The translations under genes were made by a program, and so were the position numbers. Below, piece by piece: positions 38,550 to 60,178 of a stretch of 62,558 bases of DNA. Position 1 is the first letter of the stretch; each line of letters begins with the position of its first letter. This DNA is from an uncultured Methanomicrobiales archaeon (lineage in GTDB: Archaea; Halobacteriota; Methanomicrobia; Methanomicrobiales; Methanospirillaceae): the NCBI GenBank assembly GCA_963758915.1, contig CAVWXH010000001.1, forward strand, positions 1 through 62,558, read 5' to 3'. A model generated the notes under the pieces. That model saw only the letters and a program-made list of their open reading frames with translations. It was not told the DNA's origin and made no database searches.

Positions 38550-38993
38550 GTGACCGAAGACTGGATTATTATAGTAACCGGAGTGGTTTCGGTAGCAATT
38601 GTCATCTGCGCCGTATACCTCTATACCAACGGCCGTGAACGAAAGCTCATCGGGGACCGCCATAAACTGAAAGTGTACCAGGAATTTTTCCACGCGGTAA
38701 CAGACCTCAACACTGCAGGAAGTGATCCTGACCGGCTTATCCGGGCAAAGATGAGGCTGGCCTATATCCTCGATACGATGAACCTCGTCGCAGGGCCGGA
38801 GGTACTGAAATCCATCAATGATTTCCTTGATTTCCTGAACGAGTGCACTGATGGCGAATGTGATGTGCTCAAGGAGCTGAATATCCTCAATGGCATCGTC
38901 CGGGACATGAGGGATGAACTTGACCGTAAAGGGTCGAGAGGGCTCGATGAGTCTGAGTTCAGGTTCAGGTTTTTTATCCCGAAAAACCGCTGA
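38550..38993 (+). CDS. Hypothetical membrane-anchored protein
   Basis: N-terminal hydrophobic helix followed by a helical domain. Confidence 0.7.
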   Translation: MTEDWIIIVTGVVSVAIVICAVYLYTNGRERKLIGDRHKLKVYQEFFHAVTDLNTAGSDPDRLIRAKMRLAYILDTMNLVAGPEVLKSINDFLDFLNECTDGECDVLKELNILNGIVRDMRDELDRKGSRGLDESEFRFRFFIPKNR

Positions 38994-39229
38994 ATAATAA
39001 AAATAATTTGAAATATCCCTTTTTCCGGGTTTTAATGTAACATTATTTCGATGAGAATCAGGGTTGCATAAGTTCTTTCATCCTGAAATCTCACTGTATT
39101 GTAGAGCAGGGAAATGCCTCGGTCCCTTAATTGTGTCCGGTGATTCCGGGAAACTGCCCGGGTAACAACGGGACCATTGGGAGGTACCGGGAGGTTATCC
39201 CTTCTATATCCTACATTTGGTGACCGGGA

Positions 39230-39790
39230 GTGACAATGAAGAGGACATTCGTCGTTGGGGTGACAGGGGCAAGTGGCGTGATTTACGCCAAACGGCTCCT
39301 CGATGTGCTCTGTGAAGAGGAGAACGTCCACCTGATAACAACAAGGATCGCCCGGGATATTGCCCGGCATGAAGGTGTGGCCCTTGACGGGTACAACGCG
39401 GTGTATCATGATGAGGACGGGATGGGTGCAGGAATTGCAAGCGGATCATTCCGCCATGACGGGATGGTGGTAGTCCCCTGCACGATGAAGACCCTTGCTG
39501 CCATCAGTAACGGTTTTGCTGACAACCTGATTACGCGGGCAGCTGATGTCAGCCTGAAAGAAGGCAGGAAGTGTATACTCGTGCCCCGTGAAATGCCCCT
39601 CTCGCGGGTCCACTTAAAGAACATGCTCGCTGCAGGTGAATCGGGCGCCACGATCATGGTCGCAAGCCCCGGGTTCTACCACCACCCGAAGACAATCGAT
39701 GACCTCGTGGACATGGTGGTCGCACGAATTCTGGACCATTTATCAGTCGAGCATTCCCTCTGTTCCCGGTGGAGTGGTTACGATGCGTGA
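39230..39790 (+). CDS. ubiX: Flavin prenyltransferase UbiX
   Basis: GVTGASG, IASGS, PCTMKTLA, LITRAADVSLKE, LVPREMP, PGFYHHP. Confidence 0.96.
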   Translation: MTMKRTFVVGVTGASGVIYAKRLLDVLCEEENVHLITTRIARDIARHEGVALDGYNAVYHDEDGMGAGIASGSFRHDGMVVVPCTMKTLAAISNGFADNLITRAADVSLKEGRKCILVPREMPLSRVHLKNMLAAGESGATIMVASPGFYHHPKTIDDLVDMVVARILDHLSVEHSLCSRWSGYDA

Positions 39791-41019
39791 ATTCATTGAA
39801 ATAATGCGTGAAGCCGGGGAGGTTACCGATATCGACCAACCCGTCGATATCAGGTTTGAAGCGCCAAAAATGGCGGCGAAAACCGATAAGCTGCTATTGT
39901 TCCATAACGCGGCAGGTCATAAGGCCGTCATGAACGTGACCGCCACAAGAAAGGCCCTCTCCCTCGCCCTCGGAATAAAAGAGTCAGATATCGTAAAAGA
40001 CCTTTCGACGAGAGAATGCGGCGGCCGGGTTGTCGAGGAAGGGGACCTGAAGATGAGCAGGACAGACTTCTCCCAGATTCCCGTCATGACACATTTTCCG
40101 AAGGATGCAGGCCCCTATATCACGTCAGGAATCGTGTTTTCCCGATACGGGGACGTTGAGAACGCGTCCATTCACCGGATGCTCGTCATTGATAACGACC
40201 ATGTCAGCTGCCCGTCTTGTTGAGGGACGCCATACCCATACGCTCCTCCGGAAAGCGCTCGCGGAAGGAAAGGAACTCCCGGTGGCCATGGCGATCGGTG
40301 TCCACCCGGCGGTCACCTTTGCCAGCTGCTCCCGTGTCGCCTGGGGCGATGAACTTGCATTTGCCGCAACACTGCTTGGAGGAGAACTCCCGGTAAGACG
40401 CTGCCCGAACGGGGTGCTCGTCCCGGATGCAGAGATCGTGCTGGAAGGTTACATCGGCAGCGAACGGCATGCGGAGGGTCCGTTTGTCGATATTACCGGG
40501 ACATATGATGTCATCAGGAACGAGCCGGTCATCAGGTTCACCGGGATGAGCCTGAAAAAAGAGGCAATTTACCACGGGATCCTCCCGGCCGGCAACGAGC
40601 ACAAACTCCTGATGGGTGCCCCATACGAGCCTATTATCTATCGCGCAGTGGCAGGAGTCACGGAAGTAAAAAATGTCAGCCTTACCCGCGGCGGGTGTGG
40701 CTATCTCCATGCCGTGGTCCAGATCAGGAAAAATACCGAGGGGGATGCTAAAAATGCAATTATGGCAGCGTTTGCCTCACACACCTCGCTGAAACATGTT
40801 GTAGTGGTCGATGAAGATATTGACATTTTCAATCCCGAGGACGTCGAGTTCGCCGTTGCGACAAGGGTCCGCGGAGACAAGGACTGCATGGTGATTACGG
40901 GCGTCCGGGGGTCTTCGCTGGATCCATGCAGGCTTGAAAATGGTACGAATGTAAAAATCGGCCTCGATGCCACGATGGAAATGGGAAGAGAAGCAAAATT
41001 TATAAGGGCCGGGTGGTGA
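39783..41019 (+). CDS. ubiD: UbiD family decarboxylase (probable anhydromevalonate-phosphate decarboxylase), split by one frameshift near 40205
   Basis: DAGPYITSG, NASIHR in the first frame; AEIVLEG, EGPFVDITG, VVVDEDID, GSSLDP, KIGLDAT in the second. Confidence 0.9.
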
Positions 41020-47648: not shown

Positions 47649-50600
47649 ATGCTGCAGGTCTCACCGCTGATGGAACAATACCTTGCGGTGCTTCAGAATG
47701 GCCTTGAAGAGGCGATGGCGGTTGCACGTGCGGCGCGGGCACAGGGGCTTGACCCGAAGACCGTCCCTGAGATCCCGGTGGCAAATGACCTTGCGGACCG
47801 TGTTGAAGCGCTCCTGAATATCAGGGGGGTCGCGGCGCGTATCCGTGAACTGGAGGCCACGATGTCAAGGGAAGAGGTGGCGCTCCGGATCGGTGACGAT
47901 TTCGTCGCCTGCAAATTCGGGGAGACCGGCCCCCTGGAAGTCCTAGACCATGCAATCCGCACCGCAATGGCGCTCCTTACCGAAGGTGTGGTTGCAGCCC
48001 CAACGGAAGGGATTGCCAAAATTGGCCTGGGTAAAAACGATGACGGCACGGAATACTTAAAAATCTACTATGCGGGCCCGATCAGGAGTGCGGGGGGTAC
48101 TGCACAGGCACTATCAGTCCTCGTCGGGGACTATGTGCGGAGAGCGCTCGGTATTAACCGGTATATCCCGAGACAGGAGGAGATTGAGCGGTACATCGAG
48201 GAGATCCGCCAGTATAACACTATCATGAACCTCCAGTACCTCCCGAGCGAGAAGGAGATACGGCTTATTGTCAGCAACTGCCCGGTCTGTATCGATGGAG
48301 AAGGTACTGAACGGGAAGACGTATCGGGGTACCGGAACCTTGCCCGTGTTGAGACGAATACCGTCCGGGGCGGGATGGCGCTCGTGCTTGCGGAAGGTCT
48401 TGCATTAAAAGCACCAAAAGTCCAGAAAAACGTCAAAAAAATGAAAATGGACGGATGGAACTGGCTCGACGAACTGATTAGCGGTACGACGAAAAGTGAG
48501 GCAGAAGAGACCGGCCAGTCCGGTGTTAAGCCAAAAGACAAGTATTTGCGGGACCTTATTGCCGGAAGGCCCGTTTTCGCCTACCCTATGCGGAAAGGCG
48601 GGTTCCGTTTGCGCCTCGGGAGGTCCAGGAACACGGGTTTTGCCGCAGCCGGGCTCCACCCCGCCACGATGCATATCCTTGGGGACTTCCTGGCGGTCGG
48701 CACGCAGATGAAGACCGAACGCCCTGGAAAAGCGGCAGGGATTGTGCCGGTTGATTCAATTGAAGGCCCGACGGTCAGGTTAAAGGACGGGTCCGTGCTC
48801 AGGGTCGATGACAGTGACCTTGCCCGGGAGATCATGCCGAAAATCGATAAGATACTCGATGTAGGCGAGATCCTGATCAGTTACGGGGAATTCCTCGAGA
48901 ACAACCACCTGCTGGTCCCGGCGGCCTACTGTGAAGAGTGGTGGCTGCAGGAAGGTGGGAAAACCAGGCCTGAAAATGAGGCGGAAGCGATATCGATGGC
49001 GCGTTCCGGTACCTGCCTTCACCCCGCCTACATGTATTTCTGGGACGACCTCACCTGTCTGCAGGTAAAGACGCTTGCCGATTTCATTGCAGAGCATGGA
49101 TCGGTCGGGGAGACCGGCCTTGTGATCCCGAATGAGTTCATCTGTAAAGGTGTCCTCGAAGAGGCACTCATCCCGCATACCGTTCGTGACGGCCGGATCG
49201 TAATCAGGGACTATATTGTGCCCCTCGCGTGTCTTGGCCTTGGCAGTGACCTTACCCGTAACAGGGAGTGGGAGAATGCACCGATGGAAAATTCCCTCGC
49301 TCTTGTTACCCACCTGTCCGGTTTTACCATGAGGTCCAAGGCCGGGACCCGTATTGGTGGCAGGATGGGAAGGCCCGGCAAATCAGCCCCACGGAAAATG
49401 GACCCGGCAGTCCATGTGTTGTTCCCGCTTGGTGAAGCAGGCGGGACCCGGAGGTCATTCCAGCAGGCTTCCACCCATACCCTGGTCGCCAACAAGGACG
49501 GGGGTATCATTATTGTCGAGGCTGGCAGCCGCCGGTGTCCTGCGTGTAAGACCATGACCTACAAAAACCGGTGTCATTGTGGCGAACATACAAAACCCGT
49601 GTTTAAGTGCCAAAAATGCAGTCATGAGGGTGAGGAAGCCGAATGCCCTGCGTGTCACGTGGATATGTCCTGCTCGTCCACCTGTACCATTAATGTAAAA
49701 GAGGAGTACGCACTGGCGATAGCGCGTCTTGGTATCCGGGAGGACCAGGTGCAGCTGGTAAAGGGTGTCAAGGGTATGATCTCCCGTGAGAAGGCCATCG
49801 AGATGATTGATAAGGGGATAATCCGGGCACAGCATGACCTCTTTGTTTTCAAGGACGGGACGGTCAGGTACGACATGATCGACCTCCCGCTTACCCACTT
49901 CAGGCCCGACGAGGTGGGAATCACCGTTCCGCAGGCGATCAGACTCGGGTATGAACGTGACCTTTTTGGGACTCCTCTGGTTGAACGTTCCCAGGTGATT
50001 GAACTCCACCCCCAGGACATCCTGGTATCCGAGATCTGCGCCGATTACCTGGTTAAAATTACCCGGTTCATCGATATGATGCTGGTAAAATGTTATAACC
50101 TGCCGCCTTTTTACAACGTCAGGACGAAATCCGATCTTCTCGGGCACCTCGTAATGGGGCTTGCCCCGCACACGAGTGCCGGGGTACTTGCACGGCTTGT
50201 CGGGTTCACAAAGGCGAATGTCGGCTACGCTCACCCGTTTTTCCATGCTGCAAAGCGAAGGAACTGTTTCCATGGGGATACGGTGATCGATGTATATGAC
50301 GGGCGGTTATGGAAGAGTGTACCGGTACGCCAGTTCGTGATCGAGAATTTCGATATCAGCCAGCCAGGCCTTGACCGTCTCGGGACCTATTACTCAGACC
50401 CGAAGTCCTGTTTCTACACGAGGTCTGTTGACACCAACGGGATCATGCACATCAGGAAGGTTACTTCGGTATCGGTCCACCGGGCCCCTGCGGCTCTCGT
50501 CAGGATCGAGACCCGCCGTGGCAAGGAAATTGCGGTGACCCCGGATCACGCCATGCTCGTCTGGGACCTCGGGTACCTCCGAAAATTAAAAGCAATGGAA

Positions 50601-51515
50601 ATAAAGGCCGGGGACCCGTTGCCGGTAATGGAGGGGATGAATATCATCACCGATTACGTCAGGAGTGCCGAGCCGGTCCCCTCTCCCGAAGAACGTGTCT
50701 ACTGCATTACGGTTGCGGATGACCACACGGTCCTTGCAAACGGAATATTCACCGGGCAGTGTGACGGGGACGAGGACTGTATTATGCTCCTCCTGGATGG
50801 CCTCATCAATTTCTCCCGGTCGTTTCTGCCCGAGACCCGCGGTGGTTCGATGGACGCCCCGCTTGTCCTGACGACCCGGATTGACCCGGCAGAAATCGAC
50901 AAGGAAAGCCTTAATATCGACGTTGGGGCGTCATACCCCCTTGAATTGTACAGGGCTGCACAACAGTACACACACCCGAAAGACGTGGAACACCTGGTCG
51001 ACCGGGTCGAACGCCGCCTCGGGACACCAGCCCAGGTGGAGGGATTTTTCTACACTCACGGCACGACCAATATCTCGGCCGGGCCTGCTGAGTCTACCTA
51101 TACGAGGCTCGAGTCGATGCTCGAAAAGCTTGATGCGGAGCTGAAACTGGCCGAGGAGATCAGGGCGGTTGACGCGGACGATGTTGCCGAACGGGTGCTG
51201 AACACGCATTTCATCCGTGACCTCCAGGGAAACCTCAACGCCTTTTCAAAGCAGAAATTCCGCTGTACAAAATGTAACCAGAGCCACCGCAGGATGCCCC
51301 TTGCGGGGAAATGTATCAAGTGCGGGGGTAATATAATCCCGACCGTCCACGAAGGGTCAGTAAAAAAATATCTCGTGATGTCGCAGGACATCTGCAAAAA
51401 ATACGCGGTATCAGAATATACCCGGCAGCGTGTGGAGGTGCTCATCATGTCGATAGAGTCCACGTTCGGGACTGAAAAAGACCAGCAGATGGGACTTGCC
51501 GATTTCATGTCGTGA
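47649..51515 (+). CDS. polC: DNA polymerase D large subunit (DP2), intein-containing
   Basis: [37 protein letters not shown]|...|[15 protein letters not shown]-terminal Zn finger and PIP-like QMGLADF. Confidence 0.98.
50265..50759 (+). mobile_element. 165-aa mini-intein in DP2 (C1 ... C-terminal Gln, +1 Cys)
   Basis: Interrupts the conserved KRRN-CDGDED; CFHGDT block A, VTPDH block [19 protein letters not shown] blocks F/G; no endonuclease domain. Confidence 0.95.
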
Positions 51516-51659
51516 AGAAACGTAACATAATCGTCTCTATTAGCAGCCCTGGTTTCAGGGGTATCCGGGTTTCGGGAAATCATCTCCAAACCCTGGACAG
51601 CCGCCATCAACCGGTGATCTGGATATATGCTGTAATTACTGCTTAAAAAAGGGTAGTGG

Positions 51660-51953
51660 TTAGACTTCGAGGTCAGCTTCTATCGGACCGACAAAACCGG
51701 CAGCGATGTTATAGACGAATGAATAGATCGCTCCAATGATGAATCCCCAAATGGTACCACCGATTATTGCGATTACGAGGATTGCAACCGCACCCAGTCC
51801 TGCCATAGGGATCAGTTCCTTGGCGATAACACCCATACCCCCTATTACGAGAGCCATTATGATTCCCCAAATCAGACCTAAAATTAAACCTAAAATCGCA
51901 CCAATCTTTGCGACACTCATGACGTTAAAACTTTTTACTTTGTAAATTGCCAT
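51660..51953 (-). CDS. Small membrane protein (DUF3566-like)
   Basis: VMSVAKI, two TM helices, FVYNIAAGFVGPIE. Confidence 0.75.
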   Translation of the reverse strand: MAIYKVKSFNVMSVAKIGAILGLILGLIWGIIMALVIGGMGVIAKELIPMAGLGAVAILVIAIIGGTIWGFIIGAIYSFVYNIAAGFVGPIEADLEV

Positions 51954-52180
51954 AGTTCTTTTCACCTTCTGGAATGATTATGATTATATTTACCTCACAT
52001 TTAAAGAGTAGTGCTGTTTTATCAACGACTGGAATCTACTGATCGCCTGTTTGCTGTATCAACTGGAATTAAAGCTCCAATTGTAATACGACCGTGATGC
52101 CATAATGGCATTTTATTGAAAATATAATACTCTTACGTATACATTGTAATTTCAAATGTCTCGACAATTTCCAATGAAAC

Positions 52181-52266
52181 TCCATACCTCAAAACCTTTT
52201 ACCAACTGCGTCCAATATGTTTTCGCGCGAGGGTATCTAAGTGGCCAACAGAGGCAGACTCAAGAT
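52181..52266 (+). repeat. Duplicate of the tRNA-Leu upstream region plus 5' half (to the anticodon loop)
   Basis: 52181-52266 aligns with 52292-52377 at offset 111; tRNA part GCGAGGGTATCTAAGTGGCCAACAGAGGCAGACTCAAGAT at 52227-52266, then unrelated sequence. Confidence 0.92.
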
Positions 52267-52337
52267 ATCCTTACCAAGTTTGGCATAATATTCCAGACCT
52301 CAAAATCTTTTACTTCCTGCGTCCAATATGTTTTCGC

Positions 52338-52420
52338 GCGAGGGTATCTAAGTGGTCAACAGAGGCGGACTCAAGATCTGTTCCAGCAGTGGTTCGCGGG
52401 TTCAACTCCCTCCCCTCGCA
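52338..52420 (+). tRNA. tRNA-Leu (CAA)
   Basis: Acceptor GCGAGGG/CCCTCGC + discriminator A, D-arm TCT/AGA, anticodon arm GCGGA-CTCAAGA-TCTGT, long variable arm, T-arm GCGGG-TTCAACT-CCCTC (one mismatch); CCA not encoded. Confidence 0.88.
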
Positions 52421-52708
52421 CTTTGAACGAAATAAGGCATATTAGAGACTTTTCTTCCATCTTACATTGTTAGCTGTTATGCTGATTTGGAAAGCACATC
52501 GCTTTTTAATGACGGGTGGGATGCTCCTCGGAGGGGTCGCTGACCCCCCGGCCGCACGGGCCGCTGCCCCGAGGTTGTACCGGAATTACCTTCGAAAAAA
52601 GGACCGGAACCCATAGAATCGGTCGCACCACTGCCGAAGCCAGCGGGTTTTGTCTCCGAGGTGCTTCCTGGTTCTTTGGTTGACGGGATACGTTTAATCG
52701 GGCATAAA

Positions 52709-53263
52709 GTTCGCTTCGTCCGTTTCCTCGCTCCTCTTCGTTCCGCTCCGGTCCTCCTCCGCTCACATCATGCCCTGATTTTTCAGACAGTACCGGGGTG
52801 ATACAGACGGCCAAGACTTCGTCGCAGTGCTCCTCGTCATCGCCTGTCCCATCGCGGGCAACCGGGTCTGAAGACCCCATTGCATTCGCGGTAAGCAGTA
52901 ACGCCCGCTTTCCGCTACCGCTTGCGGGCTACTTGTGGAGGCCGAGGCCCGGCTGATGCCGTGCCACCTGCGACGGCCTGACCAAAACATGATAGGGTTG
53001 GGGGGGAGCACAGGACCCAGCGACGAGGCACCCGGTTACCGAGCGGAGCGAGGTCGTGGTGCCGAGGAGCGACATCGCTTTGATTCCTGGAATACTCCCC
53101 CCGGTCCGGCCAACAACAACCAGCGACGAAGACACCCGATAACGGCCGGCCAGGACGTCGCGGTGTCGAGGAGCGGCAGAGATCCCGGGCAACATACCCG
53201 CAGGGAAGGCCCTCGGAGACGGCCGGAGGCCGGCAGTGGGCCTTCCCGAAGGGCCACCGCAGG
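52709..53263. repeat. Left arm of a long degenerate inverted repeat (non-coding, hairpin-rich)
   Basis: 52709-52856 matches the reverse complement of 55991-56134; further co-linear blocks 53004-53013/55751-55760 and 53179-53205/55565-55592. Confidence 0.85.
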
Positions 53264-53365
53264 TTTTATATTACACCAATATACGCTGCGATATGATGCG
53301 ATTCACTTTCACACCACGCATGGCGATGCCTTATAACTTCTCACGCTAACAGTATATGTGGTGAA

Positions 53366-53381
53366 AGAAAGTGCTACAAAC
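53366..53381 (+). repeat. 16-bp direct repeat AGAAAGTGCTACAAAC, copy 1
   Basis: Identical to 55422-55437; overlaps the GTG start of the first operon gene. Confidence 0.9.
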
Positions 53382-53760
53382 GCTTTTTACCAAAATACAG
53401 CACGTCGGGACCGTGAAACTGTCCGGCGGCATGTTGAGAATAGATGTGAAAATCATACAGGCAGCGATCGCCCGTTCCGATGTATCCCGGCTCACCGTGG
53501 ACCAGGCACGGGTTATCGTCTGGGATATGACACCGGTATGGTCCGGATCCGGAGAACCTGTCGAAGCTGGGCAGGCATGGATCAATGCATCCGGCCGGGC
53601 GGTCATGTACAGTATACACGGCAGGCGGTATATCTCCCCGCTCTCACACATCCGGTCAACAATCGCAGGCTCACGGAAGTTTGCGAACATTTCCACAATT
53701 ACATGGGAGCCAATCGCCCAGGTATCAGAACAGAATGCACCTCTGGCGGTGTCAGCATGA
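53371..53760 (+). CDS. Hypothetical protein, first gene of the island operon
   Basis: 129-aa ORF; TATA-like cttataa upstream; stop overlaps the next start (ATGA). Confidence 0.7.
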   Translation: MLQTLFTKIQHVGTVKLSGGMLRIDVKIIQAAIARSDVSRLTVDQARVIVWDMTPVWSGSGEPVEAGQAWINASGRAVMYSIHGRRYISPLSHIRSTIAGSRKFANISTITWEPIAQVSEQNAPLAVSA

Positions 53761-54011
53761 ACAAAATCCCGGAAAGCGCCGGACTAATGATTTCCTCACT
53801 CTATGAGGAAGCAGCCAACATGCAGAAACAATCCGATCTTCTTAGATACGAAGCTCAGGAACTGCGATACCAGGCAAAGGAGATTGAGAACCAATATGAA
53901 TTTCAGGGTCCCTGTATCGGGTGTCCCCGATATAAGACCTGCTCCCTCTCCGGATCCTGTGGTGCAATGGATCGGTGCAAGATGGCCCGCGAGCTGGCAG
54001 GAGTGGCATAA
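53757..54011 (+). CDS. Small coiled-coil protein with Cys cluster (CxxC...C...C...C)
   Basis: MNKIPES...LRYEAQELRYQAKEIE...PCIGCPRYKTC..SC..MDRC; translationally coupled on both sides. Confidence 0.7.
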   Translation: MNKIPESAGLMISSLYEEAANMQKQSDLLRYEAQELRYQAKEIENQYEFQGPCIGCPRYKTCSLSGSCGAMDRCKMARELAGVA

Positions 54012-54229
54012 TGGCTTTCGTTGTCTATGAAATCGATATGGTGTCGGGGAAAATAGAAAACCCCAACACTTTTTCGACCGAAGAAGAGGCGAGGAATCAC
54101 GCTTTCGATATGGTCGAAGGGTGGCGCGAAGGAACAGACCGGATAGTAATTACAGGAAACATCTACTCCGTTATGACCGCATCCGGACCGCTCGACTTCG
54201 GTGCATTAATTCTTCGGGAGGTGGCGTGA
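54011..54229 (+). CDS. Hypothetical protein
   Basis: MAFVVYE...FSTEEEARNHA; TAATG overlap with upstream gene, SD ggagtgg. Confidence 0.7.
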   Translation: MAFVVYEIDMVSGKIENPNTFSTEEEARNHAFDMVEGWREGTDRIVITGNIYSVMTASGPLDFGALILREVA

Positions 54230-54562
54230 ATGGGTTCACACCCAGCATGGCTGCCATTCCGGCCCATGCATCATCCAATCCTTGCTTCCCGGTGTTCCGA
54301 TTGTTCGCAATACTCCTGCATACGCGAAAGTGGAAAACTTCCCTGTCACCATTGCGAGCGATACAACGGCGATGCCAGGTATGCGATTGACGGGTGCGAT
54401 TTCCCTGCAGGCGCAGAAGTCTGCGAGAACTGCGGTGCGGTCGTCCCAATCGAGGACCATATAACCGGGACAGAAGACCAGGGAGAGCCAGAGCGGGCCG
54501 GGTCCGTGAACTACTTCGCGGGATACAACTGTCCGGCCTGCGGCCATCATGCCGAGGTGTAA
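54230..54562 (+). CDS. Zinc-finger protein (four CxxC pairs)
   Basis: CSDC, CHHC, CENC, CPAC; SD ggaggtgg. Confidence 0.75.
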   Translation: MGSHPAWLPFRPMHHPILASRCSDCSQYSCIRESGKLPCHHCERYNGDARYAIDGCDFPAGAEVCENCGAVVPIEDHITGTEDQGEPERAGSVNYFAGYNCPACGHHAEV

Positions 54563-54772
54563 TGATGGAATACAAAATTTTTGTTAATAGAGGAATAGGG
54601 CCCCCAGCTCATCGCCGAGTGTATCGATCATAGTGCAGCGGTGGATTTCGCCGCAGTATATGCACATAATCATAATATGGGCTGGATGTGGTCGAAAGTG
54701 GCAGCCAATCAGATTGTCATCCGGCCCGGTTTTACGAACGGAAAACCACGTCTCCGGGGTGGTCGGGTATGA
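54562..54772 (+). CDS. Small hypothetical protein, probably with one frameshift near 54603
   Basis: MMEYKIFVNRGIGP then, after a frame change, QLIAECIDHSAAVDFAAVYAHNH...GGRV* whose stop overlaps the next ATG. Confidence 0.45.
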
Positions 54773-55209
54773 CCACCTCAACCCCTCAAACCTTCTGGAC
54801 CGAGGAGGACATTATCAGCCGGTACACCCGGGCCGATGGCCTGCGGGATGGTGAACTGATCGCAGCTCCCGAGGACCTCACCAGGCAGGCGGGGATCTCG
54901 ATCCCGGTCGCAATGACCCGGGCGGTATGGGCCGGGTATGTCAGCCCTCACTACCTCGAAAAGATGCCGGACCAGGACGAGATCGGCCGACTGTGGGATC
55001 TACTCTGGATGCTTCGATCAGCTGCCATGAGATCCAGAGGCAGCAGCGTTATCATATTCCGCGTGGCCTTTGAACTCCTCCGTGAAAAAGCCCGGGCGAG
55101 CGGGATTGTGTATATCCGGGGCGGCGAAATAGTCGAGCTGAAAGCGGTATGCGGTCCCGGTGATGACTGCGAACCAGTCATAACAGTTATGCTCCCTGCA
55201 GAGGACTGA
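54769..55209 (+). CDS. DUF6573-like mobile-element protein
   Basis: ISRYTRADGLRDGELI, PVAMTRAVW, QDEIGRLWDLLWM, LKAVCGPGDDCEPVITVMLPAED. Confidence 0.75.
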   Translation: MTTSTPQTFWTEEDIISRYTRADGLRDGELIAAPEDLTRQAGISIPVAMTRAVWAGYVSPHYLEKMPDQDEIGRLWDLLWMLRSAAMRSRGSSVIIFRVAFELLREKARASGIVYIRGGEIVELKAVCGPGDDCEPVITVMLPAED

Positions 55210-55215
55210 ATAGTA

Positions 55216-55410
55216 ATGGTTAGAGAGGCTAAAACCCCACCTCATAAATTTTATACAACAGATGAAGTGGCCGCGATGCTGCGTCTTCACGTCCAGACCG
55301 TCAGGACTCTGGTTTTAAAAAAGCGTCTTGGAGCGATAAAAATCGGAAAGGAATGGCGGGTTAGTGAAGAGGACCTTAACGAATTTATCAGAGAGAACAG
55401 GAACAAGTAA
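55216..55410 (+). CDS. Excisionase-type helix-turn-helix DNA-binding protein (HTH_17)
   Basis: YTTDEVAAMLRLHVQTVR...LGAIKIGKEWRVSEEDL. Confidence 0.92.
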   Translation: MVREAKTPPHKFYTTDEVAAMLRLHVQTVRTLVLKKRLGAIKIGKEWRVSEEDLNEFIRENRNK

Positions 55411-55421
55411 CTACGGCCGGT

Positions 55422-55437
55422 AGAAAGTGCTACAAAC
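55422..55437 (+). repeat. 16-bp direct repeat AGAAAGTGCTACAAAC, copy 2
   Basis: Identical to 53366-53381; starts 12 nt after the HTH stop and is followed by hairpin aaccgac-cgca-gtcggtt. Confidence 0.9.
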
Positions 55438-55510
55438 AGATAAAACCGACCGCAGTCGGTTAATCTATTGCATCCCTTTTCTTATCAGATTATCTACCAG
55501 GACAAATTTT

Positions 55511-56134
55511 TCCCTGCGGGGCGTCGCACGGTCCGGCCCTGATGGTCCGGCCATCGAGCGCCACCCCTACGGGCTTGTAATACCGGGATCTCATTTGCCT
55601 GCCTGCGCCCACCCGACAGCTCCCGACGGCCTGCGGATGCAGACCGTAACCGGGCTGCCTTCCCGCCCTGTTAGCATCCCCATCCAGAATATATCCTATC
55701 TCTTTAGAGGGCGGTGGGAGCACTCGGAGGTGACACGGTATCAACCGGGTCTGTGCTCCCTCCTTTCATACAGGCTGCAAGTGATAACGGTGAGCAGCCG
55801 ATATTTATTTATGTGTCATTGGGGGCCAAGCGGCCCGAGTGAACGCCGCTATGGGGTGTGAAGGTAACGAGACGTTCTCAAACGGCGAGTCCGAGCCCCA
55901 CATGCGTCGCGTGAACGAGTCACCGAGCGTCTGCACTTGTACGGTACTCAGCGAACGGGACATAAGGCCTCAGCCAGGTGTCCCGAAGTGTGATGGATCA
56001 GGCGATGACAAGGAGCATCGCGACGAAGTCTTGGCCGTCATTGTCACCCCGGTATATTCTGGAGAACCAGGGCATGATGTGAGCGGAGGAGGCCCGGAAC
56101 GAAATGAAGTGAAGTGAGGAAACGAGGGAGCGAA
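55511..56134. repeat. Right arm of a long degenerate inverted repeat (non-coding, hairpin-rich)
   Basis: Reverse-complement counterpart of 52709-53263. Confidence 0.85.
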
Positions 56135-56351
56135 AAATGATGCCCGATACTGTTGTAATAATCTCTTACGGTTTGCCAGGAACAATTAGAGACCGACGGA
56201 TAATTTATGAAAAGTGAAATGTCACAACGAACAGGTATTTTCCAATTGGGAGGTGGCTAACCTCCCGGCTCCCTCTGTGCCCCGAAGGGCAATTACTACT
56301 CTGTTGTAGAGCAGTATCAATATCTACGAAATTGTCGCCCCGGAAAAAAAA

Positions 56352-56534
56352 TTAAGTTGTTGAAGCAAACGAGCTCCACCTCATCCTCCCATTCACCACA
56401 AAGTTACCTGCAGCCCCAACCTTCTCCGAGGTCGCATGAACATACCCGAGTGCCGAGGTATTCCCAATCCCTATCAATGATCGTGACCCTGCAGCAAAGT
56501 TACCATAACCATTACCCGTCGATGAAACATCCAT
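56352..56534 (-). pseudogene. Orphan duplicate of the last 60 codons of the 58012-58769 gene
   Basis: Ungapped alignment with 58012-58194, about 80% nt identity by hand count, stop codon in the same position. Confidence 0.88.
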
Positions 56535-56620
56535 TCAAGTTCTATCTGGTTTATATCAATCAACCAGGTCTTCATAAGAGAACCTAACCTTTATCGTCCA
56601 GACAATCGTTGTAGGTTATA

Positions 56621-57506
56621 ATGGGGAAAATATTCTTAATTTTGCTTCTTCTTGTTTTTATTTCTCTAACGGGTTGTACCACAACCGTTCCAGATATTAC
56701 CGGAAATAACAGTACATTATCTCCAAATAACTCAGTTTTAAAAAATTCAAGCATGGCACAGGAAATTGCAGACAAGGTTATCACCCACGAAGAATCGTAC
56801 AAATTATACTCAACAAACGGAACTATCACCATACTCCGGACCGGTACTCCCCGGTCTTACTCGTTCACGCTCTATGCTCAACGGCCTGATCACTATTACC
56901 TGAGGCTGGGCGAACGCAAATGGGAATATCACCGATATTTTCATCACAACCGGATGGGACGAATATATTATTCATTCATCTTTCAACGAAACCCTGCATT
57001 TTCAAAAAGGTTTTGAACACTCTACAAAATATGATACGCCACGACCCCCACCATCGTATGACCGGGGATATGATATTCTGGAGCTGGTTACTTCTCCCTT
57101 ACGGGAAGGTAGGGATAATATTACCAGGAATCTCTCTGCAGAAGGAGATGGCGAATATTCAGTTGTTTTTTCGGCCGGTTCATTCGACGGGGCACTTCGG
57201 CCCATTATCCACATGACTGTCAACAGTTCGGATTATTCTGTTAAAGAAGTTGCAATCAATGGGCCGGAGAATAATCCTTTGATGGAGATTAGATTTAACG
57301 ATATAGAAACCCCCTCCCAATTCCCGGAATCACGTTTCGAATTGCCCCCTGGATCCGGACCCCTCATCGGCCACGATGTTACGGGATATACACCGCCACT
57401 TTATCCCATATTTGATTCACCACCGGCCGTTATCTACCCCTACCGGATTTCAACTTTTATAACGACCCCCTCCACCCCATCTATGACATCGGTTCCCGGG
57501 GTCTGA
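56621..57506 (+). CDS. Lipoprotein, LolA-like fold possible; several frameshifts
   Basis: Lipobox-like ISLTGC; end piece MEIRFNDIE...FPESRFELPPG; three overlapping ORFs read as one gene. Confidence 0.55.
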
Positions 57507-57558
57507 CAGATATTATCTGATATAAGAATAAATGTAATTTAATCGGGAAATAAAGTCC

Positions 57559-57966
57559 ATGAATCAATATTTGAAATATGTTGGAATAGGATTGCTGATT
57601 ATTTTCATCCTATGGAATATTTTCTTCTCATTTCTTGTATATTCTGGCGGGGGTTGCCCCCCAACGTATGTCGTCCAAAAGATTGGATCCACTTCAGTGG
57701 ACACAGTTTCCATACCAGATAATGGAGTGCATAACAATCCGCAGGATATATCTGAACATCCTGGGTTAGTGGCTGCATTCAACACTGGGAAGTCGATACT
57801 GCTCCCTATCGGCACGCTGGCAGATTTGATACCAGGAAGTTTTTTTGGCTCAAAATATGCAGATACCAGGATTCAGATTTGGGAACGAGGATATCTGGAA
57901 AAATACTATACTACCGTATGGGAATACAACGGCTCTTACTTTAAACTCGTTTCAACGCAATGTTAA
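57559..57966 (+). CDS. Membrane-anchored exported hypothetical protein
   Basis: N-terminal TM helix; DISEHPGL...WEYNGSYFKL. Confidence 0.7.
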   Translation: MNQYLKYVGIGLLIIFILWNIFFSFLVYSGGGCPPTYVVQKIGSTSVDTVSIPDNGVHNNPQDISEHPGLVAAFNTGKSILLPIGTLADLIPGSFFGSKYADTRIQIWERGYLEKYYTTVWEYNGSYFKLVSTQC

Positions 57967-58011
57967 ATGGACATCGATTTTGAATTGGATAAAAAAATAG
58001 ATTTTTAATAA

Positions 58012-58769
58012 TTAGACCGATGAAGCAAACGAGCTCCACCTCGTCCTTCCATTCACTGTGAAGTTCCCACCAGCTCCAACTTTCTCGTTAACAAGATGAA
58101 CATACCCTAGTGCCGTAGTATTCCCAATCCCAATCATTGATCGTGATCCCGCAGCAAAGCTACCGAAACCATTACCCGACGACGAAACATCCATCGCCAG
58201 CGAATCCGGCAGTTCAGTATCACCCTGGCTAATCGCACCGACTGACCGATACGAAAGCGAATCAGTCATGAACATCGTCGAAGTCCCTGCATACTCACAA
58301 TAAGCAGATTTGCTGAAATTAGCCCCCTCCTCATCGAGTGAGTCAGATCCACAAGTCACACCTGAAGTCGGTGACCCGACTGAATAAACCATCAACGACT
58401 CCGAGAGGATCCCGGGCCCCTGGCTGTCCACCTGCTGACTGTAGAGAACTCGAGTGTATCATCCGCCGACAATGACCTCTTACCTGAGTAAGTCCCGGGA
58501 CCGGCTACCAGGACAGATCCTGAATATCCACCTTGCAGGATCTCCTGCCCGATTCCAAGCGGTGGAGTCTTCGAAAGGTCCCCATCTGATGCGGTCCAGG
58601 TCCAATCGGATGAGTGGATAGCATCTGATCACCGGATGCCTGAATTGATACATCGCAAGAAGCAGCCTGGACCGGGGTAATCCCGGATACAAGCCACGCC
58701 GAGCACAACTGCTGCAAATATACAACCGCCGATGACCAACTTTCTCCGCTGGGATAGTCGCTTGATCAT
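58012..58769 (-). CDS. Secreted beta-rich (Ser/Gly/Thr-rich) hypothetical protein, several frameshifts
   Basis: ATG at 58769 overlaps the upstream stop; signal-like MIKRLSQRRKLVIGGCIFAAVVL..PVQAA; pieces join to ORF 58012-58431. Confidence 0.6.
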
Positions 58770-59157
58770 GTCGCCTCCGTCTTTCCCGAGCCCTTGATGA
58801 GCCCGTATTCTATGTCATACCAGGCAGATGGGACCGTGATTGTGTAGGTATCAAGCCTCTCCGCTTCTGCCTCCGCCACCTGCCGGAGAAGGCCCTCCTG
58901 CTCAATCGGCGAGTGGTCGAATGTGAGCCATCTCTTCGTACTGTCGGACATCTTGTAAGACCGGCCCGGGACCTCCGGTGGTGCTGTGGTCACCGTGTCA
59001 TCAGTCGGGTCGAAGTAGCTCAGTACTGGCTTGTAGTCTCTGTGGCAGCGGTAGCTGTTGCCATTGCTGTCGTCGCTTTCCTGTGCTGCACGTACGCGAT
59101 GAACGCCGCAGCGAGCGTAATCAGAATTTCAATGAGGTTGGTTAATTCCGGATCCAT
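58766..59157 (-). CDS. Small membrane-anchored protein, one frameshift near 59025
   Basis: MDPELTNLIEILITLAAAFIAYVQHRK... continues after a frame change as VLSYFDPTDDTVTTAPPEVPGRSYKMSD...YGLIKGSG. Confidence 0.65.
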
Positions 59158-59311
59158 GATATTCTCCTTTTATTTTCTCATGCTCCGCACGCAGGGCCTC
59201 GAACTCCGCACAAATTACTTCATACTTCCCGATTTTCTCGTAAATCAGGAAAAGTGAAGGGTAAAGCGGAAGTAAGACGCCGAGGATAAGGGCCGTAGTT
59301 TCAATATCCAT
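59129..59311 (-). CDS. 60-aa single-TM protein with charged tail
   Basis: SD ggagg, TM helix ALILGVLLPLYPSLFLIY, amphipathic charged C-terminus. Confidence 0.65.
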   Translation of the reverse strand: MDIETTALILGVLLPLYPSLFLIYEKIGKYEVICAEFEALRAEHEKIKGEYHGSGINQPH

Positions 59312-59389
59312 AGTGGACCTCCTCGAACAGGGGAGACCAAGAATAGAAGGAGCAGGGATGATCCGGCTCTCCCGTGTTCAATTAGCGGT

Positions 59390-59903
59390 TCAGGCAAGTG
59401 CGGGCTTTGTGTTAGCCCAGGTGTTCACGCGGGCAACTGACCAACCGCATTGTCCTCGGTCCGAGGATACAGTGACAGTCTTCCGGGTGAACGTGACGGT
59501 ATAATCTTCGCCGTTTGCATCGTGGCAATTCAGCGAAATTGAATACCCTTCGCCTTCAGTATCCTGAATGGGATCCCCACCGATTGCGGTTGCAAGTGCT
59601 GCATTTCCGACAAGTGCTGTTGCAGCTGCGGTATAGCCTGCAACAGTCGATGCCTTTGCAGTCGCAGATACCCATGTTCTTCAGGGTTGTGGGATTTTCA
59701 TAAACCACGCGGATTCCGAATGACTGTGTGCTACGGCTGACACCGGGGTGAGTTACACCGGCGACACTGTGGTCCACGCACTGGAATGCGTTGGTATCGA
59801 TGATACCCTGAACGAGGGTGTTTAACGTCGCTACATCAGCGATCTTGGTCGTAAGAGTACGGACCGACCGCTTGACATTTGCGCTCTGGACAAAATCTGA
59901 CAT
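59390..59903 (-). CDS. Ala/Thr-rich hypothetical protein, frameshifted near 59670 and 59460
   Basis: MSDFVQSANVKRSVRTL... continues in other frames as ASTVAGYTAAATAL...LNCHDANGEDYTVTF...VNTWANTKPALA*; SD aggag. Confidence 0.65.
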
Positions 59904-60178
59904 TTCGTTTTCTCTCCTGCCCCTTTTGGGACGTAAAAAGAGTAGGAAGGGGGATTAGAAAATGAAGGAGGCGAGCGTCACCCTGAAGAAAAATAGAATG
60001 AAGTTTGAGAAATCTAGGGGATTAGTTAGGGTTCGAACACCGCCCCTTCCTGTTCCTCCCATACAGTACGGCCAATACCGATTGCAAAGGAACTGTGTAA
60101 TTAGAAGAAAAAATAACTAGGTTCAATGCCCGGCCCTATTGCAGATTTCTCAAGTAAACAACAAGATTGTCAGTTCGA

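What the first reader, a model, noticed from the sequence alone, without database searches (positions are those of the whole stretch)
52709..56134. Symmetric module: 2-kb operon enclosed by two ~600-nt structured non-coding arms in inverted orientation
Seen: the regions on both sides of the 53371-55410 operon lack credible genes and are diverged reverse-complement copies of each other. The outer ~145 bp are close (caggcgatgacRaggagca..gcgacgaagtcttggccgtc...cagggcatgatgtgagcggaggagg). Co-linear blocks continue inward (gggagcacag at 53004/55760; gagatcccgg...cccgYaggg at 53179/55592; ggccgg...ccgcagg). The conserved blocks are hairpins while the spacers diverge, which suggests selection on fold. 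The arms are far longer and more structured than IS terminal repeats, and there is no transposase or integrase between them. Inference: paired single-strand origins/priming or processing sites, a duplicated large ncRNA, or the ends of an invertible or excisable unit of an undescribed Methanomicrobiales element. This is the best candidate for a new system in the window.
Basis: partly seen in the sequence, partly recalled or inferred. Interest (0 to 1): 0.8.

Follow-up and report, generated by a model that had tools for sequence, protein, structure and literature searches.

The report
Barcoded inverted-repeat mobile element, Methanoregulaceae
The symmetric module is one copy of an undescribed small mobile element of methanogenic archaea, whose long inverted arms enclose seven small genes and whose first gene's start is exactly copied into a hairpin loop at the far end, a likely antisense control.

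Summary
The inverted arms are real. The outer 157 nt are 80-82% alike. The inner parts are homologous only by a family profile (E 8e-9). The module is not unique. A second copy lies on contig C10, and copies of 3.0-4.2 kb occur several times per genome in related Methanoregulaceae MAGs. All 11 complete copies keep ORF1 (a novel 129-aa protein), ORF2, ORF6 (DUF6573) and ORF7 (excisionase-type HTH). No transposase, integrase or Rfam RNA was found. The interior occurs in both orientations next to the same flank, including at the same tRNA-Leu site in two genomes. The new finding is a 12-17-nt word spanning the ORF1 start codon. It recurs exactly just after the ORF7 stop in 14 of 15 genome copies and 5 of 5 metagenome copies, yet differs between copies. 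The second copy sits in the loop of a hairpin that pairs only on the antisense strand (98 of 99 cells, 18 of them G·U). A sister family in Methanoregula, carrying an ArdC-like gene, has the same layout in 18 of 24 loci. My best reading is a mobile element with long terminal repeats whose first gene is checked by a convergent antisense RNA specific to each copy. Transcription, strand and the mobility enzyme are not shown.

The parts
52338..52421 (+). tRNA-Leu(CAA). Its 3' end faces the element, 275 nt away.
   Evidence: ARAGORN and Rfam tRNA at 43 bits. The same tRNA and flank sit next to a copy in another genome, L050.
52481..52696 (.). 'Flank' outside the left arm that travels with many copies, on one side only. 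The last 78 nt (52619-52696) are the most widespread part.
   Evidence: 81% identical to C10:144393-144609. Found beside copies in L038, L040, L042, L043, L047, L048 and L053. Short pieces occur in many genomes of the genus.
52697..52853 (+). Left outer inverted-repeat unit 'U' (terminal repeat).
   Evidence: There are 7 matches in the window's own genome, and 14 of 101 family genomes have a match. The terminal motif is also seen at arm ends of the sister family.
52854..53262 (+). Left inner arm, non-coding. It holds block B2 (~52880-52985), invariant B3 (53018-53071), covarying hairpin B4 (53123-53174) and near-invariant B5 (53197-53253).
   Evidence: Alignments. Pair counts. No conserved frame. 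B3 occurs exactly in 22 stretches of genome contigs and 29 of metagenome contigs, and in none of viral contigs.
53263..53365 (+). Promoter and leader of the operon. It has TATA-like boxes at 53265-53272 and 53331-53338 and a GGTGA ribosome-binding site.
   Evidence: Read from the sequence and from conservation. The last ~65 nt are the only non-coding part conserved with the sister family. The promoter role is inferred.
53366..53381 (+). Barcode copy 1 (DR1). This 16-nt word spans the ORF1 GTG start, from -5 to +11.
   Evidence: Exact repeat D3. It is the only positionally conserved non-arm repeat, present in 11 of 11 elements.
53371..53760 (+). ORF1, 129 aa. A novel, strongly conserved protein whose first 2-5 residues vary between copies.
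   Evidence: 65-87% identity to the first sequence over 11 other copies. Only 10 clusters match among 1.84 billion representatives. No Pfam, PHROG, NCBIfam or PADLOC hit.
53757..54011 (+). ORF2, 84 aa. Coiled coil with a Cys-rich tail. Kept in all complete copies, and a relative is present in the sister family.
54011..54562 (+). ORF3 (72 aa) and ORF4 (110 aa, zinc-ribbon-like). Variable members of the operon.
54641..54772 (+). ORF5, 43 aa. A variable member.
54769..55209 (+). ORF6, 146 aa, DUF6573.
   Evidence: Pfam PF20213, E 1.4e-24. There are 97 homologues. The AF2 model has pLDDT 89.7, with no clear fold match.
55216..55410 (+). ORF7, 64 aa. Excisionase-family helix-turn-helix protein.
   Evidence: HTH_17, E 2.2e-16. 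TIGR01764 at 49.9 bits against a cut-off of 28.8. PHROG excisionase families.
55411..55455 (-). Hairpin that forms on the antisense strand. Its arms are 55411-55421 and 55445-55455. The 23-nt loop carries barcode copy 2 (DR2, 55422-55437).
   Evidence: 98 of 99 cells paired, 18 of them G·U, and 4 pairs changed on both sides, in 9 distinct copies. The hairpin is also in the minimum-energy fold.
55456..55991 (-). Right inner arm (type B). It has a conserved stretch with a T5 run at 55507-55511, a B5-like part at 55504-55594, and a B2/B3-like part at 55646-55871.
   Evidence: nhmmer E 0.033 and 8.4e-9. Conservation among copies.
55992..56148 (-). Right outer inverted-repeat unit 'U'.

Best explanation
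The module at 52697-56148, plus a one-sided flank from about 52481, is one copy of an undescribed family of small elements (3.0-4.2 kb) in Methanoregulaceae. These elements are mobile or horizontally moving and sit integrated in the chromosome.

Shown:
- The family has several diverged copies per genome. Each has long inverted arms and a conserved operon of small genes.
- The interior lies in either orientation next to the same flank.
- Copies often lie near tRNA genes.
- An exact word that differs between copies is shared by the ORF1 translation start and the loop of a hairpin just after ORF7. That hairpin pairs only on the antisense strand.

Inferred:
1. The arms act as long terminal inverted repeats. 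Their invariant blocks and repeated 8-9-nt motifs would be recognition sites for element or helper proteins. Recombination between the arms flips the interior.
2. Each arm ends in an inward-facing transcription unit. The left one drives ORF1-ORF7. The right one gives a convergent antisense RNA.
3. The loop of that RNA pairs with the first ~15 nt of the ORF1 message, including the start codon, and holds back ORF1 translation. This would be copy-specific, like the RNA-based immunity or copy-number control of phage P1/P7, satellite P4 and many plasmids.
4. Movement needs an enzyme supplied in trans or one of the unassigned small proteins.
For: Family and copies:
- A second full copy lies at C10:144393-148022, 82-88% identical.
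- The terminal unit U matches in 14 of 101 family genomes, and in 8 of 11 other genomes of the genus.
- Inverted U pairs 2.8-4.0 kb apart occur on 6 further contigs.
- All 11 complete copies keep ORF1, ORF2, ORF6 and ORF7.
- The copy in G056 is 97.3% identical over 3.2 kb, while host DNA flanking the C10 copy is about 90% identical to the same genome.

Orientation:
- The flank lies on the ORF1 side in 4 copies and on the ORF7 side in 4-5 copies.
- The same tRNA-Leu(CAA) and flank site carries the interior in opposite orientation in G000 and in L050.

tRNA neighbourhood:
- Six places in this family have a tRNA within ~310 nt.
- In the sister family, 7 of 20 loci have a tRNA within ~1 kb.

Barcode:
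- An exact 12-17-nt word is shared in 14 of 15 distinct genome pairs and in 5 of 5 distinct metagenome pairs, with at least 13 different words.
- It is the only positionally conserved non-arm repeat, present in 11 of 11 elements.

Hairpin strand: 98 of 99 cells pair and 18 are G·U. Those 18 would be A·C mismatches on the sense strand.

Sister family (ORF1 35% identical):
- 18 of 24 loci have a 13-15-nt word at the ATG repeated in a hairpin loop 1.2-2.1 kb downstream. The variable second codon matches at both sites.
- 19 of 24 have flanking inverted repeats of 160 nt or more.
- 15 of 18 have an A-run just before the hairpin, which is a T-run after it on the antisense strand. 11 of 18 have a sense-strand T-run before it.

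Pairing energy: the predicted duplex is -29.8 kcal/mol for cognate pairs against -18.1 for non-cognate pairs. The cognate partner ranks first in 11 of 15.
Against: - No transcript start, end or strand was seen. The RNA-library data are contigs only and may hold DNA.
- No promoter for the antisense strand is established.
- The G·U argument also fits folded single-stranded DNA.
- Specificity is imperfect. The window's ORF1 leader is predicted to pair as well with the C10 antisense loop (-30) as with its own (-30).
- One genome copy (L087) and one sister locus (L188) have mismatched words. Five sister loci show no word.
- No target-site duplication was seen, no att-like tRNA repeat and no empty site. 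No mobility enzyme was found. Mobility therefore rests on copy number, varied contexts and the high identity between species.
- The two arms of one element are only 72-94% alike, so they are not kept identical.
- Identical copies would collapse in MAG assemblies, so copy counts and the apparent distinctness of words within one genome are biased.
Confidence: 0.5

Rival explanations
1. The two matched words are crossover (core) sites of a recombination system. Conserved inverted sequences flank a variable spacer that must be identical in both partners, as with heterospecific lox/FRT spacers. Alternatively the site folds on one DNA strand, like integron attC. Recombination between the words would excise or exchange the 2.06-kb operon as a cassette between fixed arms.
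For: The words are direct repeats that bracket the whole operon exactly. The second word is flanked by an 11-bp inverted repeat. Copies are mosaic. A metagenome copy is 98% identical to the window in ORF6-ORF7 but 91-92% in ORF1, ORF3 and ORF4, and it carries a different word at both sites. ORF7 belongs to the excisionase family.
Against: No recombinase is present. No arms were found without an operon: all B3 pairs on one contig lie 2.4-2.8 kb apart. No circular junction was seen. The first word has no comparable conserved inverted repeat and lies in coding sequence. The all-G·U bias of the hairpin is not expected for a double-stranded protein-binding site.
Confidence: 0.15
2. The arms work as folded single-stranded DNA, either as single-strand promoters or as priming sites for complementary-strand synthesis. 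The element would enter cells as one strand, like the Frpo/ssi sites of the leading regions of conjugative plasmids. Having the arm in both orientations would serve whichever strand is transferred.
For: The sister family carries an ArdC-like gene (ArdcN and MPTase-PolyVal domains). ArdC is known to me as an ssDNA-binding anti-restriction protein of conjugative plasmids (recalled). DUF6573 lies among small early-type genes on a phage contig. Hairpins with compensatory changes occur in the arms. Frpo is described as a structure that mimics double-stranded DNA upstream of early anti-defence genes (PMC11541004, passages read).
Against: No transfer or rolling-circle gene lies in or next to the element. 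No archaeal promoter-like duplex was found conserved in a hairpin. The left arm does not fold better than shuffles. Single-strand transfer is not known to me in this order (recalled).
Confidence: 0.12
3. Each arm is a gene for a large structured non-coding RNA of about 500-700 nt, and the operon between them is incidental.
For: Blocks of 54 nt (B3, invariant) and about 57 nt (B5, nearly invariant) are kept in 13 copies whose ORF1 proteins are 65-87% identical to the window's. Contigs of three RNA libraries cover parts of both arms, including an adaptor-flanked 138-nt piece at 52821-52958.
Against: No Rfam family matches at E<=1. The consensus fold has almost no covariation term (-0.61 kcal/mol), and a predicted B5 helix has 4 uncompensated breaks. 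Wobble pairs in B4 do not favour one strand. The arms of the sister family are not detectably homologous. The arms are always tied to the operon apart from solo terminal units.
Confidence: 0.1
4. The module is not mobile. It is an ordinary chromosomal locus copied by segmental duplication, and the inverted arms are a by-product.
For: The C1 and C10 copies lie within larger paralogous regions (window 56244-59968 matches C10:159277-162508). No target-site duplication or empty site was found.
Against: Up to six or more diverged copies occur per genome, in different contexts. One copy is 97% identical between species whose flanking DNA is ~90% identical. The family is present in only 14 of 101 family genomes.
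Confidence: 0.04

Closest known systems
RNA-based immunity of phages P1/P7 (c4 RNA) and satellite P4 (CI RNA), and antisense copy-number or fertility control of plasmids (CopA, RNAI, FinP). All recalled; not read here.
   Same: A short regulator sequence is matched to a target at or near the ribosome-binding site of a key gene. The matched sequences differ between related elements and change together, which gives element-specific control.
   Different: Here the complementary loop is encoded 2 kb away on the opposite strand, at the far end of the operon, so the two sites appear as an exact direct repeat in the DNA. The host is an archaeon. No RNA has been observed. The regulated protein (ORF1) has no known function.
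Transposons with long structured or subterminal-repeat ends (for example Mu, Tn7, Ac/Ds and En/Spm ends, and casposons). Recalled.
   Same: Long inverted ends carry repeated short motifs, with multiple copies per genome in varied contexts.
   Different: No transposase or Cas1 gene and no target-site duplication were seen. The arms of 380-740 nt make up about 40% of the element. The two arms of one copy are only 72-94% alike.
Invertible DNA segments and the yeast 2-micron plasmid (long inverted repeats flipped by a recombinase). Recalled.
   Same: A unique segment lies between long inverted repeats and is found in both orientations.
   Different: There is no invertase or FLP-like gene. Inversion is seen only between genomes or copies, not within a population. 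The joints match fixed variants.
Leading-region anti-defence islands with Frpo/ssi single-strand promoters of conjugative plasmids (PMC11541004, passages read).
   Same: Clusters of small genes, including ArdC in the sister family, are preceded by long hairpin-rich non-coding DNA.
   Different: Frpo mimics bacterial -35/-10 boxes. No conjugation genes, oriT or evidence of single-strand transfer are present here.
Bridge-RNA-guided IS110/IS1111 recombination. Recalled.
   Same: A loop of a folded non-coding sequence within the element matches another site of the same element, and the two vary together between family members.
   Different: There is no DEDD recombinase. The match here is one continuous 12-17-nt word that covers a start codon.

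Membership tests
Insertion sequence / DDE transposon | Terminal inverted repeats | tested here: met
   157-nt inverted units, up to ~420-500 nt in other copies.
Insertion sequence / DDE transposon | Transposase gene inside the element | tested here: not met
   The seven ORFs gave no transposase family in Pfam, PHROGs, NCBIfam or PADLOC. The largest ORF is 146 aa.
Insertion sequence / DDE transposon | Target-site duplication at the ends | tested here: inconclusive
   No direct repeat was seen at ends lying in unique contexts. The exact termini are uncertain, and no empty site was recovered.
tRNA-targeting integrative element (tyrosine integrase) | Integrase gene in the element | tested here: not met
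   None among the ORFs. An integrase-like ORF lies elsewhere, at C18:38603-39805. It was read by eye and not scanned.
tRNA-targeting integrative element (tyrosine integrase) | Direct repeat of the tRNA 3' part at the far end (att) | tested here: not met
   No such repeat in L041, L038 or L048, nor in the window.
tRNA-targeting integrative element (tyrosine integrase) | Location beside a tRNA gene | tested here: met
   Six places within ~310 nt of a tRNA 3' end. In the sister family, 7 of 20 loci, on either side of the tRNA.
Site-specific invertible switch | Invertase or recombinase gene beside short inverted sites | tested here: not met
   No recombinase family found.
Site-specific invertible switch | Both orientations present | tested here: met
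   Seen between copies and genomes only. Not tested within one population.
Any Rfam RNA family | Covariance-model match | tested here: not met
   Only tRNA at E<=1 in 50000-58500 and in L006 and L007.
Trans-acting antisense RNA control | Complementarity of the regulator to the target's translation start, changing together between relatives | tested here: met
Trans-acting antisense RNA control | An RNA transcribed from the antisense strand | not testable with these tools
   Only unstranded contigs of RNA libraries could be laid. T-runs after the hairpin on the antisense strand in 15 of 18 sister loci are indirect evidence.
IS110-type bridge-RNA element | DEDD/RuvC-like recombinase | tested here: not met
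Casposon | Cas1 gene | tested here: not met

The most novel reading that the evidence does not exclude
The matched word is a guide, not merely a regulator. A folded antisense-strand RNA or single DNA strand from one arm would pair with the other end of the operon. That pairing would direct recombination, excision or copying of the cassette by small, so far unassigned proteins. This would be an archaeal nucleic-acid-guided mobile system with no known recombinase family. The long arms would serve as its single-strand origins or promoters.
Probability: 0.12. Interest if true: 0.92.

Novelty: new variant of a known kind. Interest (0 to 1): 0.72.

Why it matters
Mobile elements of methanogens of the order Methanomicrobiales are almost unknown. 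My three text searches found nothing describing this one.

- The family offers a compact, multi-copy system in which two sites 2 kb apart change together across at least 13 variants and two protein-level families. That makes it a ready natural experiment on nucleic-acid specificity in archaea.
- If the antisense reading holds, it would be, to my knowledge, a first case of element-specific RNA immunity or copy control in a methanogen element. It would also give matched seed and target pairs that could be used as orthogonal regulators.
- The element ties three unassigned protein families to one mobile context: ORF1, DUF6573 and an archaeal ArdC-like protein.
- Its repeats explain contig breaks and rearrangements in these MAGs.

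Tried and rejected
- Rfam at E<=1 gave only tRNA.
- The AlphaFold model of ORF1 was poor (pLDDT 43) and was not searched. The Atlas gave no usable hit for ORF1.
- The ORF6 model gave no Foldseek match at E<=0.001. VIA-align's best score was Z 4.6, to CdiA- and RelE/ParE-like toxins. That is below the level the tool calls meaningful, so I draw no function from it.
- A PDB sequence profile search gave nothing below E 0.1.
- Coding potential of the arms was rejected. There are no Pfam hits, no frame is kept, and copies differ by 1-nt indels and non-synonymous changes.
- The pairwise test of the inner arms was not significant. It was replaced by the profile test.
- Empty-site search: the two flanks of the C10 copy lie on different contigs in relatives, so no empty site was obtained.
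- Target-site duplications were not seen, and no att-like tRNA repeats were found.
- The word repeat as a target-site duplication was rejected, because it supplies the ORF1 start codon within conserved surroundings.
- A conserved ORF starting at the second word was rejected, because the frame differs between copies (read).
- B3 gave 0 hits in viral contigs. ORF1 and the left arm gave no match in the plasmid or phage collections.
- The search for related loci with alignment A6 failed for lack of a conserved stretch. I used the single protein P0003 instead.
- RNA libraries X18-X20 were laid as contigs only, with no strand, start or end. Parts without cover mean nothing. The 'opposite strands' joints 52902/55818-55824 match the fixed arm arrangement of G056b-type copies, not active inversion.
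- The search of earlier findings returned nothing.
- The idea that co-resident copies must carry different words is not testable in MAGs, because identical repeats collapse. It is also weakened by the predicted cross-pairing between C1 and C10.

Full report
**Check of the observation.** The window equals contig C1 of an 18-contig, 2.38-Mb genome. The arms 52697-52853 and 55992-56148 are inverted repeats of 157 nt, 80-82% alike. Between them lie seven same-strand ORFs (53371-55410). The arm ORFs have no Pfam hit at E<=1, and no frame is kept among the 18 arms examined. Copies of the outer unit differ by 1-nt indels and by changes that would alter residues.

Inward of the outer unit, the window's two arms are too diverged for a pairwise test. 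The score gave z=2.7, and the best of 300 shuffles beat the observed score. I then built a profile from inner arms of other copies, leaving out the window's own left arm, and searched the whole genome. It finds the right arm in reverse complement at 55871-55646 (E 8.4e-9) and, co-linearly, at 55594-55504 (E 0.033). The arms are therefore old inverted duplicates along most of their length. Folding energy alone does not mark them out: z is -1.7 and -1.1 for the left arm and -3.3 and -2.7 for the right.

**A family, not a single locus.**
- A second complete copy lies at C10:144393-148022 and is 82-88% identical.
- Solo outer units lie at C4:5142-5281 and C5:23230-23385, and a 70-nt piece at C10:156886-156955.
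- The outer unit matches in 14 of 101 sampled genomes of the family, and in 8 of 11 other genomes of the genus.
- On six further contigs, two units face each other 2.8-4.0 kb apart.
- The records are Methanoregulaceae/Methanomicrobiales MAGs from freshwater sediments.
- Eleven complete copies (2945-4179 bp) all keep ORF1, ORF2, ORF6 and ORF7. ORF3, ORF4 and ORF5 come and go.
- One MAG (G056) has the invariant arm block on five contigs and another (G063) on six.
- The copy in G056 is 97.3% identical to the window over 3.2 kb. DNA flanking the C10 copy is about 90% identical to the same genome. This points to recent movement between species.

**The arms.**
- There are two arm types. Type A is the window's left arm and type B its right arm. 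They share the outer unit and occur as A/B, A/A or B/B pairs.
- In A/A copies the inverted repeat runs about 320-500 nt. Identity between the two arms of one element is 72-94%.
- Thirteen copies were aligned. Their ORF1 proteins are 65-87% identical to the window's. A 54-nt block (B3, 53018-53071) is invariant, and a 57-nt block (B5, 53197-53253) nearly so.
- B4 (53123-53174) is a hairpin kept through double changes in six of its pairs.
- The consensus fold as a whole has almost no covariation term. Four cells of a predicted B5 helix are broken without compensation.
- Short motifs recur in B3, in B4 and, inverted, in the outer unit (read).
- I read the invariant blocks as recognition sites rather than as helices. 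This is an inference.

**The genes.**
- ORF7 is an excisionase-family helix-turn-helix protein.
- ORF6 is DUF6573. A confident model (pLDDT 89.7) has no convincing fold match. A distant relative lies among small early-type genes of an IMG/VR phage contig.
- ORF1 is strongly conserved but almost unique, with 10 clusters among 1.84 billion representatives.
- No transposase, integrase, Cas1, replication or defence family was found.

**Context.**
- A 78-216-nt flank (52481/52619-52696) accompanies many copies on one side only.
- The flank lies on the ORF1 side in four copies (window, L038, L042, L053). It lies on the ORF7 side in four or five (C10 with its orthologue L040, L043, L047, L050).
- tRNA-Leu(CAA) plus this flank is followed by the same arm in G000 and in L050, but the interior is reversed. 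This is what recombination between the arms would give.
- In six places the end of the element lies 86-312 nt from the 3' end of a tRNA gene: Leu-CAA twice, Leu-TAA once and Thr-TGT three times.
- I found no target duplication, no att-like repeat and no empty site.

**The matched word.**
- The 16-nt exact repeat at 53366-53381 and 55422-55437 spans the ORF1 start codon. It recurs 12 nt after the ORF7 stop.
- In all 11 complete copies the equivalent two places share an exact word of 12-16 nt. This is the only non-arm repeat found at a constant position.
- Over all loci, 14 of 15 distinct pairs share 12-17 nt. The exception, L087, shares 9 nt and differs by an indel.
- Five further distinct pairs from metagenome contigs share 13-17 nt.
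- The word differs between copies, with at least 13 versions. It accounts for the variable first residues of ORF1.
- A chance exact match of 12 nt or more between two such short stretches is expected in well under 1% of copies (my estimate).

**The hairpin.**
- The second word lies in the 23-nt loop of an 11-bp hairpin (arms 55411-55421 and 55445-55455).
- In nine distinct copies read on the antisense strand, 98 of 99 cells pair and four pairs change on both sides. Eighteen cells are G·U, which would be A·C mismatches on the sense strand.
- The helix therefore forms on the strand opposite to the operon, where the loop is complementary to the ORF1 start.

**A sister family.**
- P0003, 35% identical to ORF1, has 44 loci in Methanoregula and related MAGs.
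- In 18 of 24 loci examined, a 13-15-nt word at the ATG recurs 1.2-2.1 kb downstream in the loop of a GC-rich hairpin. The variable second codon matches at both sites.
- One locus has a 1-nt mismatch and five show no word.
- Nineteen of the 24 have flanking inverted repeats of 160-570 nt.
- The interior carries an ArdC-like gene and an ORF2 relative.
- Fifteen of 18 have an A-run just before the hairpin, which is a T-run after it on the antisense strand. Eleven of 18 have a sense-strand T-run before it. This is the pattern of two convergent transcription units.
- Only about 65 nt upstream of ORF1 are conserved between the two families. A TATA-like box about 33 nt before the start suggests a very short leader, so the word would be the 5' end of the message (inference).

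**Expression data.** Three RNA libraries hold contigs on both arms and on the ORFs, for example 55091-55241 without a difference and an adaptor-flanked piece at 52821-52958. They give no strand and may include DNA.

**Reading.**
- The layout fits a mobile element with long terminal inverted repeats.
- Its first gene would be held in check by a convergent antisense RNA with a copy-specific seed.
- Predicted duplexes favour cognate partners, at -29.8 against -18.1 kcal/mol. The cognate partner ranks first in 11 of 15. The window's leader pairs as well with the C10 loop as with its own.
- The main rival is that the words are recombination cores for a cassette.
- Folded single-stranded DNA (origins or promoters) and large ncRNA genes remain possible roles for the arms.

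**Prior descriptions.** Text searches for DUF6573 (0 papers), for Methanoregula with inverted repeats and mobile (2 papers, passages of one read) and for ArdC in archaea (listing only) found no description of this element. The supplements of those papers were not seen.

Noticed in passing
window 52174-52266 and 52285-52377: Tandem partial duplication (89-92% identical) of the tRNA-Leu(CAA) upstream region plus its 5' half, 111 nt apart. An RNA-library contig shows a 'goes back 78' joint here.
   Followed up: no
G000 C18:38295-38565 and 38603-39805: A copy (75% identical) of the tRNA-Leu 3' half plus 237 nt of its downstream flank lies between a RuBisCO-like gene and an integrase-like 400-aa ORF, followed by PIN- and primase-like ORFs. 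It looks like the far end of a larger tRNA-Leu-integrated element. The protein names were read by eye and not scanned.
   Followed up: partly
G000 C10:148023-156885: An 8.9-kb block (cupin-like, sulfite-reductase-like, TrmB-like and hybrid-cluster-protein-like ORFs, read by eye) is bracketed by the full terminal unit and a 70-nt partial unit in direct orientation. In G018 and G077 the same genes are arranged differently around a unit. The units seem to be rearrangement points.
   Followed up: partly
G000 C4:5296-5455, C5:23398-23555, C10:157631-157780: A second repeat ('X', about 150 nt, GC-rich with hairpins) often lies just outside the arm opposite to the flank. It has no Rfam match.
   Followed up: partly
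window 56244-56534 and 58007-59968: DNA to the right of the element is paralogous to C10:159277-162508 (87-90% identical), and 56361-56534 repeats at 58021-58194. The element therefore sits in a larger duplicated region.
   Followed up: no
L151:4893-5804 and other loci L149-L192: Methanoregula MAGs carry an archaeal ArdC-like gene (ArdcN plus a zincin peptidase domain) inside the sister element. It is present in one copy in each of two closed chromosomes.
   Followed up: partly
window 47649-51515: A 1288-aa ORF looks like the large subunit of DNA polymerase D with an inserted intein-like stretch. This was read by eye and not scanned.
   Followed up: no
L183 (record titled Spirochaetota MAG, 1041-bp contig): A sister-family ORF1 that is 90% identical to P0003 sits on a short contig binned as a bacterium. 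This is probably a binning error.
   Followed up: no
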